DNA of 64,000 nt from the human T2T-CHM13v2.0 reference genome, Homo sapiens, in NCBI RefSeq assembly GCF_009914755.1, contig NC_060929.1. One strand, 5' to 3'. Below the pieces are notes generated by a model. That model did no database searches. It was not told the DNA's origin and was given only the letters and a program-made list of their open reading frames with translations. Shown here piece by piece: positions 22,047 through 25,505 of the stretch. Each line of letters opens with the position of its first letter. Positions within the stretch are counted from its first letter, which is position 1. The translations under genes were made by a program, and so were the position numbers.

Positions 22047-22389
<343 letters not shown>

Positions 22390-23535
22390 TCACTATTAGT
22401 GCTAAGAAAACATTAGGTGATAACTGCCAAATGTGTACACAGACAAGTGATATAAAAATTTAAAACAGAGGAACACACTTAGCTTAGCTTTAGGAGATTC
22501 TGGCATCTCATAGGAAAAGGGATCAAATTATAAATGATATACGTCTGGAAATTCAGTAAAAATAGTAGGTTGTGCACAGTGTTTTTGCCATAGTAGTGAA
22601 GGCACGGATTTCTTTTGTTTGGTGTTCTTGGGGACAAGATGACAAATGTAAAAGTCCCTTAATTAGTGAGAAATCACCAGCCTTCTTTGGATCTACCCCA
22701 CTTAGGGAGAGGAGATGGTAAAATGACGAATAAAGGGAAAAGTGACTGAGGAAAGAAAGGTGAGAGGAAGCTGCAGAGGCAGGAGGTGGAGGGAAAGTGC
22801 AGATCTGCTGGCGCGGGGTCTGGGGTCTCAGGTCTCGGCCGCCTGGGGAGCCACCTGCCTGGAGAGGCAGGTTGCGATGGCAGCGCTGGGCTACAGACCC
22901 CGCCTTATCTGCGGGGAGGAGAGGACGGGTGGAGTCACTTGCCGCATTGCCACAGCCCCCTCCTCCTAGTTTTAAGAAGAACCGAAGCATTGTTTCTGCT
23001 TTAACAGCAGTCACTCATTCCTTATAACTGAAAACAACGACGGTGGGCTCTGGCACCTCTTTCGGCTCCTTGTACTGTTGGAAAAAAAAGTCTGGGAAAA
23101 CGTGTACCTTGTTTTTTAAATGGGGATGATTGTGATAGCCAACAGGCATATGATAGTTTTATTTCCTTGCTTTTTCCCCCCAGTACATTGACGATTCTTT
23201 GTAGCTACTTGAACTGATTTTAAAGACATTTCGAAAGAACTATAAGTCAAGCTATAAAGTATTTGGCTTTTGCGGGAATAAAACACGCCTTTTGAGTCAA
23301 ACACAGGTCTTTCAGGCACTAAAAACAAGTAGGAAATGAGAAAAAAAATTAAAACCAGAAGACTTCAGGAAAGTGACAAATTGGAAAGCATTCTAGAAGA
23401 CTCATAGGACGACTTTATGTGAAAGAAGCACTCTAGGAGCTTTAAAAGCTTATGGGCAATTTATATTATAAAAGGATTTTAGGCTCAAAAGTTTTGGGGG
23501 AAGGCACAGAAAAAACAGTGCCATATTCTTAAATT

Positions 23536-23733
23536 GGCGGGGCGAGCAAAGGTCGTGGAGAAGACCCCGGGAAGCTGCTGGAGCCGGCAGAGGAGGAATC
23601 CCAGGTTTTGCGCGGAACTGGCCACTGTAAGTGGTTCAATGTGCGCATGGGATTTGGATTCATCTCCATGATAAACCGAGAGGGAAGCGCCTTGGATATT
23701 CCAGTCGATGTATTTGTACACCAATTCCTGTGA
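23536..23733 (+). pseudogene. LIN28B-derived coding segment (N-terminus and first half of the cold-shock domain), truncated
   Basis: Translates to GGASKGRGEDPGKLLEPAEEESQVLRGTGHCKWFNVRMGFGFISMINREGSALDIPVDVFVHQ then FL*. About 4 of 63 residues differ from LIN28B as I recall it. In-frame TAA at 23530-23532 immediately upstream. Confidence 0.92.
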
Positions 23734-23833
23734 TGTCACCAAATCCCCAAAAAGAAACACATGCCTAGGTGCTGTACTTTGTCTCTCTTTAGACATGTTG
23801 ATAAATGCTGTGAGATTCTGCTGTTTGAGGATG

Positions 23834-24105
23834 AGACAGGATCTCGCTCTGCTGTCCAGGCCGAAGTACAGTGTTGTGGTCATAGCTTGCTGTAACCTCA
23901 AGCTCATGAGCTCAAGTGATCTTCCCACCTCAGCCTCTCATGTAGCTAGGACTACAGGTGTACACTACCATGCCTGGCTAATTTTTTTCTTTTATTATTT
24001 TTTTTTTTTTTGGTAGAGACAGGGTCCCAGGCTGGCTTTGAACTGCTGGCCTCAAGTGATCTTCCTTCTTCCACCTCCCAAAGTGCTGGCCATAACACCT
24101 GGTCT
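23834..24105 (-). mobile_element. Antisense AluJ lacking its poly(T) tail, inside the retrocopy
   Basis: Begins abruptly at agacaggatctcgctctg with no T-run before it. Confidence 0.85.
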
Positions 24106-24918
24106 TTCTGAACATTTTCAATTGTATATTTTTATTTTACAAAGCCAGAGATATAAATAATATTCAAGGCATCCAAGAAAAAAAAATTTAAAACAGAAAA
24201 AGTTATTTTTCTCTCCTCCTAAGAGATTGAGTGAATGATCTTAAAGGGCTGGTAAAAATTGAGAAGGGTGGAGGGAAGTGTGGGGCGGGGGAAACATTTC
24301 AGGCAGAATTCTGTTTAGATGAGACCCCACACGCAAGTTGGGAAAGGTCCAAGCATATGGAGACAACAGAATCAATGTTACTAGAGCAGTTAACAGGGAA
24401 ACCAGGGTCGGATTTGAGTTTCCTCAATGGGAAGATAGGAGGGCTCCAGTGGAAAATCTCCAAGGTCATGTCAAACTCTAACTAGAATGTTACTAACTAG
24501 AATGTCTAACTAGAATGTCCAACTGTAATCTAATGTAGAATATCTAAACTGAATCTACTGTAACTCTAAAAATTGTTAAGGGTGATATCAACCAGTATTT
24601 AGGATTAGGAAGTATCTTTAGGGTTCCAGTCCTGGAGAGAGAATATGTTCATATCCAGGCCTTTGAGAAACTGACAAGATGAAAAGTATCAGTTTATAAC
24701 GTCATTATTTGAAGATAATTCATAAAAGAAACATTAAATCCACTAAAAATGGGAATATCATTTATTATTAAATAATGGAAAAATTTTATAGGGACAATCA
24801 TATTGCAAAGAGAAACTAAAGATTATTTTTTAAAAATCAATCTTACACTTAAAAATTTGTTTATAATAACAATTATGTCCTAATTCCTACAAGAAACAAA
24901 AATAGAATTAAGGATTGA

Positions 24919-25420
<502 letters not shown>

Positions 25421-25505
25421 GCCATCATCCTTTTACAAGGTTTGCAAATTTATGGTGTAATATATTTGGGTTCTATTTACATTACATATTCTGCTTGACA
25501 TTGAC

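What the first reader, a model, noticed from the sequence alone, without database searches (positions are those of the whole stretch)
23725..24181. Putative poison exon plus exonised antisense Alu terminal exon after LIN28B exon 2
Seen: right after ...CACCAA there is no GT donor. The frame reads TTC CTG TGA (stop), continues ~110 nt, then enters an antisense AluJ exactly at (g)agacagg with the poly(T) tail missing, runs through the Alu into unique sequence and ends in poly(A). Known: antisense Alus exonise through the AG dinucleotides next to the poly(T) tract, so the spliced product lacks the tail. Inference: LIN28B intron 2 contains a cryptic stop-containing exon and an Alu-derived last exon with an intronic poly(A) site. 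This would be a truncation route that removes the let-7-binding zinc knuckles and the let-7-targeted 3'UTR.
Basis: partly seen in the sequence, partly recalled or inferred. Interest (0 to 1): 0.8.

Follow-up and report, generated by a model that had tools for sequence, protein, structure and literature searches.

The report
Retrocopy fossil of truncated LIN28B transcript
A dead, intron-less copy on chromosome 5 preserves an unusual spliced RNA from the LIN28B locus on chromosome 6, one that began at an upstream promoter and ended early inside intron 2 in an Alu-derived last exon; it is a neat record of an alternative transcript but probably of little functional weight.

Summary

- **What it is.** Window 22470-24181 is an L1-type processed retrocopy. 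It sits between exact 16-nt target-site duplications.
- **Where the pieces come from.** Its four pieces map collinearly, on the same strand, to the LIN28B locus on chr6:
  - a 1,059-nt upstream first exon;
  - exon 2;
  - a 120-nt exon (109 nt in the copy) lying 2.6 kb into intron 2, with TGA as its third in-frame codon;
  - a terminal exon 24.5 kb into the 68-kb intron 2.
- **Splice sites.** Every junction falls on a GT or AG in the parent.
- **The Alu exon.** The terminal exon starts at the second base of an antisense Alu. The parent Alu keeps its T-rich tail as the polypyrimidine tract; the copy lacks it.
- **Age.** Copy and parent differ by 2.2%, which suggests great-ape age.

Caveats:
- The captured RNA lacked the LIN28B start codon.
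- From the canonical start the product would be a 68-aa half cold-shock domain on an NMD-eligible mRNA.
- The non-templated poly(A) cannot be shown.
- No RNA data or chr6 gene models were available here.

The most likely reading is a non-productive or non-coding isoform.

The parts
22454..22469 (+). 5' copy of the 16-nt target-site duplication (AAAAATTTAAAACAGA)
   Evidence: Exact repeat of 24182-24197. The window holds 2 matches; none of 100 shuffles reached that. On the bottom strand the nick site reads TTTTT/AT, like the L1 endonuclease preference (read; the consensus is recalled).
22470..22470 (+). Extra G between the duplication and the first templated base
   Evidence: It is not in the parent, which has T at that place. 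It is not part of the duplication either, because the 3' copy is followed by A. It is possibly cap-derived; that is inference from recalled knowledge.
22471..23536 (+). Copy of an upstream alternative first exon of the LIN28B locus (chr6:106129375-106130433)
   Evidence: 1,059 aligned bases with 22 substitutions and 5 indel events. The parent donor is AAATTG|gtgagt. A CpG-rich 300 nt (GC 0.60, observed/expected 1.06) lies just upstream of the parent start. TAA at 23530-23532 is in frame with the LIN28B frame.
23537..23724 (+). Copy of LIN28B exon 2 (chr6:106134115-106134302), the first half of the cold-shock domain
   Evidence: 188 nt with 5 substitutions and no indel. The parent acceptor is ttctcag| and the donor is CACCAA|gtaagc. 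The translation matches vertebrate LIN28B fragments.
23725..23833 (+). Copy of a stop-containing exon in LIN28B intron 2 (chr6:106136931-106137050); TGA at 23731-23733
   Evidence: There is only one other place in the genome. The parent acceptor is cttgtag| and the donor is GGATG|gtatgt. There are 2 substitutions. The parent carries an 11-nt tandem duplication, so it is 120 nt against 109 nt in the copy.
23834..24102 (+). Antisense Alu part of the terminal exon (parent from chr6:106158835)
   Evidence: Aligned in reverse complement to a sense Alu of the window. The parent acceptor is tttatttattttag|AGACAGG. A 12-nt deletion and a longer linker T-run distinguish the copy from the parent.
24103..24177 (+). 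Unique 3' part of the terminal exon, with the hexamer TATAAA at 24152-24157 (CATAAA in the parent)
   Evidence: The match to chr6 covers query positions 1-348, ending at chr6:106159185, whereas other Alu copies match only to position 256. Homology to the parent stops at ...CATCCAG(AAAA), and the parent then goes on GCTGGCAAGG.
24178..24181 (+). Four A between the last templated G and the duplication (remnant of the tail, or templated)
   Evidence: The parent also has AAAA at this place, so a non-templated tail cannot be shown.
24182..24197 (+). 3' copy of the 16-nt target-site duplication
   Evidence: The flank from 24176 to 24420 has no second place in the genome.

Best explanation
Window 22470-24181 is a processed, L1-mediated retrocopy of one spliced RNA from the LIN28B locus on chr6. 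The finding, 23725-24181, is its 3' third.

The source RNA had this structure:
1. It started about 3.9 kb upstream of the start-codon exon, next to a CpG-rich stretch, with a 1,059-nt first exon.
2. It spliced to exon 2.
3. It spliced to a 109/120-nt exon 2.6 kb into intron 2, which puts TGA three codons after ...VHQ.
4. It spliced to a terminal exon 24.5 kb into intron 2.

The acceptor AG of the terminal exon is formed by an A in place of the last T of an antisense Alu's tail plus the first G of the Alu body. The degenerate T-rich tail serves as the polypyrimidine tract. The RNA ended about 19 nt after a CATAAA hexamer, so it lacked exons 3-4 (second half of the cold-shock domain, both zinc knuckles) and the normal 3'UTR.

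Shown here:
- the exon structure;
- the splice-site sequences in the parent;
- the duplication flanking the insert.

Inferred:
- The RNA was polyadenylated at that site.
- It was made in the germ line or early embryo roughly 10-20 million years ago.
- It is a non-coding or unproductive by-product, since it has no LIN28B start codon and, with the canonical start, would be an NMD-eligible mRNA for a 68-aa fragment. It is not a source of a working truncated protein.

The chr5 copy itself is most likely inert.
For: - **Mapping.** Four collinear, same-strand matches to chr6 appear in a blastn of window 22300-24400 against 200 kb of the locus: 106129380-106130434, 106134114-106134302, 106136931-106137050 and 106158834-106159185 (whole-genome searches).
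- **Splice sites.** All three junctions lie on GT...AG in the parent.
- **Intron 2 bounds.** They are fixed by exon 2 and by exon 3 at 106202372.
- **Duplication.** There is an exact 16-nt target-site duplication, with 2 matches in the window and 0 in each of 100 shuffles.
- **Flank.** The downstream flank is unique to chr5.
- **Alu tail.** It is present in the parent and absent in the copy.
- **T-runs.** The longest T-run before the acceptor is 5. Strongest hnRNP C binding, which represses Alu exons, needs runs of 9 or more (PMC3629564, passages read).
- **Divergence.** It is even across the pieces at 2.1%, 2.7%, 1.8% and 2.4%, with 37 of 1,690 aligned bases differing overall. This fits one insertion event.
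- **Reading frame.** TAA lies in frame before exon 2, and there are 9 ATG in the parent first exon. The canonical-start ORF is 68 aa, with the stop 111 nt before the last junction.
- **Promoter context.** A CpG-rich 300 nt lies just upstream of the inferred start.
Against: - **No RNA or annotation check.** No RNA data, 3'-end data or gene models for chr6 could be consulted. A retrocopy proves only that at least one such RNA molecule existed.
- **Weak evidence for a tail.** Only four A separate the last templated G from the duplication, and the parent has the same four A.
- **Weak poly(A) signal.** The hexamer is a variant, not AATAAA; its standing as a usable variant is recalled.
- **Uncertain start.** The first 13 nt of the copy differ from the parent at 3 places, so the start is good only to a few bases.
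- **Uncertain age.** The estimate rests on recalled divergence values, and no other primate genome was available.
Confidence: 0.88

Rival explanations
1. The intron-2 stop exon plus the Alu terminal exon form a regularly used, regulated truncation or shut-off route of LIN28B. It removes the zinc knuckles and the let-7-targeted 3'UTR, or it diverts transcription into a dead-end RNA.
For: - Both exons still have intact acceptor and donor sequences in the present-day parent.
- The T-tract before the Alu acceptor is broken into runs of 5 or fewer. That is the state reported for established Alu exons (PMC3629564, legend of Figure S5).
- The RNA was abundant enough in the germ line to be retrocopied, and it is the only LIN28B retrocopy found. 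Exon 2 has 3 places in the genome and exon 3 has 1.
Against: - The only documented molecule started at a different first exon without the start codon.
- The canonical-start product would be 68 aa, ending in the middle of the cold-shock domain, on an NMD-eligible mRNA.
- The poly(A) signal is weak.
- No paper in the held library links LIN28B to such an isoform (searches; passages checked).
Confidence: 0.1
2. The RNA had no real poly(A) site there. L1 reverse transcription primed internally on the short genomic A-run (AGAAAA) of a longer RNA, so the 'terminal exon' is only the 5' part of a longer exon or of retained intron.
For: The four A before the duplication are all templated by the parent, and the target site itself begins with five A. 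The hexamer is not AATAAA.
Against: - A four-base A-run is a poor substitute for a tail in L1-mediated copying (recalled knowledge).
- A CATAAA hexamer lies 19 nt upstream of the end.
- Tails of old retrocopies shrink (recalled).
Confidence: 0.08
3. The structure is not a copy of one spliced RNA. It is either a chimera made by template switching between separate RNAs, or a DNA-level duplication of the locus followed by deletions.
For: None specific. Chimeric retrocopies are known in general (recalled).
Against: - All four pieces lie in order on one strand within 30 kb of chr6.
- Each of the six internal boundaries coincides with a GT or an AG in the parent.
- The insert is flanked by a 16-nt duplication.
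Confidence: 0.01

Closest known systems
Processed pseudogenes as 'genomic fossils' of alternative transcripts (Shemesh, Novik, Edelheit and Sorek 2006, PNAS; seen here only as a reference-list entry in PMC5470649; PMC1360558 not held; content recalled)
   Same: An L1-made retrocopy preserves an exon combination of its parent gene that differs from the reference mRNA, and so reveals alternative exons.
   Different: This is a single case worked out by hand. The captured form combines an alternative first exon, a stop-containing exon and an Alu-derived terminal exon, and it keeps only 188 nt of coding sequence. That may be why the RefSeq table supplied with the finding lists no pseudogene here.
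Exonisation of antisense Alu elements, held in check by hnRNP C competing with U2AF65 (Zarnack et al. 2013, PMC3629564, passages read; Attig et al. 2016, PMC5115870, abstract start in the listing)
   Same: The Alu is antisense in an intron. Its former A-tail, read as a T-rich tract, lies directly before the acceptor AG. The tract is broken into short runs of at most 5 T.
   Different: - The AG is made from the last tail position plus the first body base, not from the AGs a few bases inside the body. The usual positions are recalled, not checked.
- No donor inside the Alu is used. The exon runs through both arms into unique sequence and ends the RNA.
- LIN28B is in neither paper's held supplements: 0 of 3 files and 0 of 2 files.
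Known LIN28B transcript forms: the long and short isoforms that differ in 5' exons (review passage in PMC10470845; primary papers not held), and the AluJb-promoted 'tumour-specific' transcript that adds N-terminal residues (PMC10363060, passages; PMC12634266)
   Same: All use alternative 5' exons or promoters at the LIN28B locus, and one of them has an Alu contributing to the transcript.
   Different: - Those forms keep exons 3-4 and the normal 3' end.
- This one ends in intron 2 and uses an Alu as the last exon, not as a promoter.
- Whether its first exon is that of the short isoform could not be checked.
Intronic polyadenylation and poison exons in general (recalled concepts)
   Same: A 3' end inside an intron removes downstream domains and the 3'UTR. 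An in-frame stop lies more than 50 nt before the last junction.
   Different: The poly(A) signal is a weak variant, and the tail is not demonstrable. Inclusion of the stop exon between exons 2 and 3 is not documented.

Membership tests
L1-mediated processed retrocopy | Intron-less copy whose internal boundaries coincide with the exon boundaries of a parent gene elsewhere in the genome | tested here: met
   Three junctions lie on GT...AG in chr6, and the parent introns are 3,681, 2,628 and 21,784 nt long.
L1-mediated processed retrocopy | Target-site duplication flanking the insert | tested here: met
   An exact 16-nt repeat lies at 22454-22469 and 24182-24197, with 0 matches in each of 100 shuffles.
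L1-mediated processed retrocopy | Non-templated 3' poly(A) tail | tested here: inconclusive
   The A-run is 9 A. Five are in the duplication and four are also in the parent.
L1-mediated processed retrocopy | Insertion at a T-rich/A endonuclease site | tested here: met
   The bottom strand reads TTTTT/AT at the nick. The consensus it is compared with is recalled.
Antisense Alu exonisation | Alu in antisense orientation inside an intron of the host gene | tested here: met
   The reverse complement aligns to a sense Alu. The element lies 24.5 kb into intron 2.
Antisense Alu exonisation | Acceptor AG next to the T-tract that derives from the A-tail | tested here: met
   The parent reads tttatttatttattttag|AGACAGG, and the copy starts at AGACAGG.
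Antisense Alu exonisation | Donor site inside the Alu (internal cassette exon) | tested here: not met
   The copy runs through the whole Alu and about 75 nt beyond it to the 3' end. This is a terminal exon.
Antisense Alu exonisation | Junctions seen in RNA data | not testable with these tools
   The only witness is the retrocopy. LIN28B is absent from the held supplements of two Alu-exon studies.
Poison exon (NMD-coupled cassette exon) | In-frame premature stop on inclusion | tested here: met
   TGA is the third codon of the exon in the LIN28B frame, both in the copy and in the parent.
Poison exon (NMD-coupled cassette exon) | Stop more than about 50 nt upstream of the last exon junction | tested here: met
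   The distance is 111 nt in the parent form. The 50-nt rule is recalled.
Poison exon (NMD-coupled cassette exon) | Inclusion between the constitutive exons 2 and 3, with NMD-sensitive product | not testable with these tools
   The copy shows the exon joined to the Alu exon, not to exon 3.
Intronic polyadenylation isoform | RNA 3' end inside an intron, downstream of a poly(A) signal hexamer | tested here: inconclusive
   The end lies in intron 2, 19 nt after CATAAA (TATAAA in the copy). The hexamer is only a variant and the tail is not demonstrable.

The most novel reading that the evidence does not exclude
The stop exon plus the Alu terminal exon in intron 2, together with the upstream CpG-type start, form an unannotated, ape- or primate-specific route that is regularly used in germ line or early embryo. 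It would end LIN28B-locus transcription early, either as a let-7-independent brake on LIN28B output or as a stable non-coding RNA. The chr5 retrocopy would then be its roughly 10-20-million-year-old witness.
Probability: 0.1. Interest if true: 0.6.

Novelty: new member of a known kind. Interest (0 to 1): 0.4.

Why it matters
LIN28B is a much-studied oncofetal regulator of let-7. Its known transcript variety lies at the 5' end: the long and short forms and the AluJb promoter.

The retrocopy gives independent, DNA-level proof of three things:
- the locus has, or had, a further upstream start;
- intron 2 holds two usable exons;
- one of those exons is Alu-derived and ends the RNA before the zinc knuckles and the let-7-targeted 3'UTR.

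That yields exact junctions and a 3' end to look for in RNA data. It also shows that a reader can recover alternative exons from a pseudogene alone.

The biological weight is probably small. The captured form is non-coding for LIN28B, and the canonical-start form should be degraded.

Tried and rejected
- **Rfam scan** of 22500-25500: no family matched.
- **Protein database search** with the window's 65-aa frame. The aim was to see whether a human product ending ...VHQFL is on record. It therefore says nothing about annotation.
- **Other LIN28B retrocopies:**
  - Exon 2 has 3 places in the genome: the chr5 copy, the parent, and a 70% match on chr1 that I take to be LIN28A.
  - Exon 3 has only itself.
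  - So no retrocopy of the reference mRNA was found at this sensitivity.
- **Literature.** Ten full-text searches were run.
  - LIN28B with 'retrocop': 3 papers. One was checked and was unrelated; the other two were judged from title and abstract start only.
  - LIN28B with 'intronic polyadenylation': 16 papers. The top one treats LIN28B as a motif binder, not as a target.
  - LIN28B with 'exonization': 29 papers, 10 listed, none on this by title or abstract.
  - LIN28B with 'poison exon': 8 papers. The top one concerns a mouse Lin28b exon in a Tra2-beta study and is unrelated.
- **Papers not held:** PMC5835183, PMC6443099, 10.1016/j.celrep.2018.02.002 and PMC1360558. The exon structures of the short and tumour-specific isoforms, and the content of the 'genomic fossils' paper, are therefore not verified here.
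- **Readings considered and rejected:** intron retention after exon 2, a template-switch chimera, and a DNA-level duplication. The grounds are the boundaries.
- **Alu subfamily:** not determined.

Full report
**Observation**

- The LIN28B-like reading frame ends ...GTA CAC CAA at 23724. TTC CTG TGA follows, and there is no GT after CAA.
- A unique stretch of 109 nt (23725-23833) follows.
- At 23834 the sequence enters an antisense Alu at AGACAGG with no T-tract in front.
- It runs through the whole Alu to about 24102, then through about 75 nt of unique sequence, to an A-run at 24178-24186.
- Aligning the reverse complement to a sense Alu of the same window shows that the Alu body is complete to its last base. 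Where the parent copy has an A-rich tail, the window copy has the end of the 109-nt stretch instead.

**Mapping to the parent locus**

The assembly that holds the window could be searched.

| Window piece | Places in the genome | Match on chr6 |
|---|---|---|
| 23725-23833 (109 nt) | 2: itself and chr6 | 106136931-106137050; 89% counting an 11-nt gap, 2 substitutions in 109 aligned bases |
| 23530-23725 (exon-2-like) | 3: itself, chr6, and a 70% match on chr1 that I take to be LIN28A | 106134114-106134302, 97% |
| 23834-24200 | itself, chr6 and many Alu copies | 106158835-106159185, 92%, over query positions 1-348 |
| 24176-24420 (flank) | 1: itself | none |

For the third piece, 6,396 first-look candidates were found and 40 were scored. 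The next best hits are other Alu copies at 76% or less, and they match only to position 256.

**The insert is larger than the finding**

- Window 23330-23540 matches chr6:106130228-106130434 at 99%.
- Reading both sequences upstream shows that the homology runs back to window 22471, which corresponds to chr6:106129375.
- A blastn of window 22300-24400 against 200 kb of chr6 gives four collinear, same-strand matches and otherwise only Alu noise.
- The insert is flanked by an exact 16-nt direct repeat at 22454-22469 and 24182-24197. The repeat occurs twice in the window, against none in each of 100 shuffles.
- On the bottom strand the site reads TTTTT/AT, like the L1 endonuclease preference (the consensus is recalled).
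- One extra G (22470) lies between the repeat and the first templated base. The parent has T there. An added G is a recalled hallmark of copying a capped full-length RNA.

**Splice sites in the parent**

| Exon | chr6 position | Acceptor | Donor |
|---|---|---|---|
| First exon | 106129375-106130433 | none (first exon) | AAATTG\|gtgagt |
| Exon 2 | 106134115-106134302 | ttctcag\| | CACCAA\|gtaagc |
| Stop-containing exon | 106136931-106137050 | cttgtag\| | GGATG\|gtatgt |
| Last exon | from 106158835 | tttatttatttattttag\| | none (terminal) |

The copy joins these pieces base for base. This is a retrocopy of a spliced RNA. It is not retained intron, a template-switch chimera or a DNA duplication.

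**Place in the LIN28B gene**

- The start-codon exon was located by a short recalled motif that has one hit in the 200 kb. It ends at 106133275, which is 839 nt before exon 2.
- The joined reading starts MAEGGASKGG. This resembles the N-terminus of a turtle LIN28B fragment from the database, MAEAGASKGG.
- Exon 3 starts at 106202372, and the zinc-knuckle exon starts at about 106254503.
- Intron 2 is therefore 68,069 nt long. The stop exon lies 2,628 nt into it and the Alu exon 24,532 nt into it.
- The first exon of the copied RNA lies 2.8-3.9 kb upstream of the start-codon exon. It begins just after a 300-nt stretch with GC 0.60 and CpG observed/expected 1.06.

**The Alu acceptor**

- In the parent, the T-rich tract that was once the Alu's tail reads TTTTTATTTATTTATTTATTTTAG.
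- The AG consists of an A at the last tail position and the first G of the antisense Alu body. The exon therefore starts at the second base of the body.
- The longest T-run in the 40 nt before the acceptor is 5.
- Zarnack et al. report that hnRNP C binds best to runs of nine or more U and thereby blocks U2AF65 at antisense Alus. They also report that established Alu exons have disrupted U-tracts (PMC3629564, passages and a figure legend read).
- That this Alu escapes such repression is an inference from those statements.

**The 3' end**

- Homology to the parent stops at ...CATCCAG followed by AAAA. The parent goes on GCTGGCAAGG, and the copy goes on with the target-site repeat.
- A CATAAA hexamer (TATAAA in the copy, 24152-24157) ends 19 nt before that G. 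I recall both as weak variants of the poly(A) signal.
- Of the nine A in the copy, five belong to the repeat and four are also in the parent. A non-templated tail therefore cannot be demonstrated.
- Internal priming on a longer RNA remains a minor rival.

**Coding consequences**

- In the copied RNA a TAA lies in frame two codons before exon 2 (23530-23532; the same in the parent). The parent first exon holds 9 ATG. This molecule could not encode an N-terminally intact LIN28B fragment.
- With the canonical start-codon exon instead, the frame gives 68 aa. These are the exon 1-2 residues up to ...VHQ, then F, L and the stop. That is about half of the cold-shock domain and has no zinc knuckle.
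- The stop ends 111 nt before the last exon junction. By the recalled 50-nt rule, such an mRNA is a target for nonsense-mediated decay.
- The longest ORF of the parental form is 121 aa. It starts in the stop exon and runs through the Alu. I give it no weight.

**Age**

Copy and parent differ at 37 of 1,690 aligned bases, which is 2.2% (Kimura distance 0.022; 1.3% at non-CpG sites), with 9 indel events. The four pieces are alike.

| Piece | Divergence |
|---|---|
| First exon | 2.1% |
| Exon 2 | 2.7% |
| Stop exon | 1.8% |
| Alu terminal exon | 2.4% |

Set against recalled human-gorilla divergence (about 1.6%) and human-orangutan divergence (about 3%), this suggests an insertion in an ancestor of the great apes or African apes, roughly 10-20 million years ago. 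That is long after the Alu itself arrived. No other primate genome was available to test this.

**What is known**

- The held literature describes LIN28B long and short isoforms that differ in 5' exons (review passage, PMC10470845).
- It also describes an AluJb-promoted transcript with extra N-terminal residues (PMC10363060; PMC12634266).
- The searches pairing LIN28B with retrocopy, intronic polyadenylation, exonization or poison exon found nothing on an intron-2 terminal exon or on a LIN28B retrocopy (checked passages).
- LIN28B is absent from the held supplements of two Alu-exon studies.
- The primary isoform papers and the 'genomic fossils' paper were not held.
- Gene models for chr6 (GENCODE, RefSeq) could not be consulted, so these exons may well be annotated already.
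- The RefSeq table supplied with the finding lists no pseudogene at this place on chr5.

**Verdict**

- The thing itself is an ordinary kind of object: a processed retrocopy that fossilises an alternative transcript, with an exonised antisense Alu as its last exon.
- The functional gloss of a truncation route for LIN28B is unproven and, on the coding analysis, unlikely to mean a working protein.
- I rate it as a new member of known kinds, of moderate interest.

Noticed in passing
window 22471-23536; chr6:106129000-106130433 (L015, L018-L019): The copied RNA's first exon is a 1,059-nt unspliced exon. It starts just after a CpG-rich 300 nt, 3.9 kb upstream of the LIN28B start-codon exon. This suggests a further promoter at the locus, distinct from the canonical one. 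Whether it is the first exon of the published short isoform could not be checked.
   Followed up: partly
L002 1555-1576 (chr6:106136985-106137006) versus window 23779-23789: The parent stop exon carries an 11-nt tandem duplication (TCTCTCTTTAG twice) that is single in the retrocopy. Each unit looks like a polypyrimidine tract plus AG, so the present-day exon holds possible internal acceptors. Which state is ancestral is unknown.
   Followed up: no
window 22049-22339: A sense-strand Alu with an 18-nt A-tail lies 115 nt upstream of the retrocopy. It served here as the reference for the Alu alignment.
   Followed up: partly
window 24477-24524: A small tandem array lies in the chr5 flank downstream of the insert. 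It has 3.5 copies of a 13-nt unit, TCTAACTAGAATG.
   Followed up: no
P0002-P0006: Several short vertebrate 'LIN28B' database proteins (sheep, rat, turtle and unnamed) end just after ...VHQ with unrelated residues. They look like gene models that read on into the intron after exon 2 or that use other downstream exons. None ends in FL.
   Followed up: no
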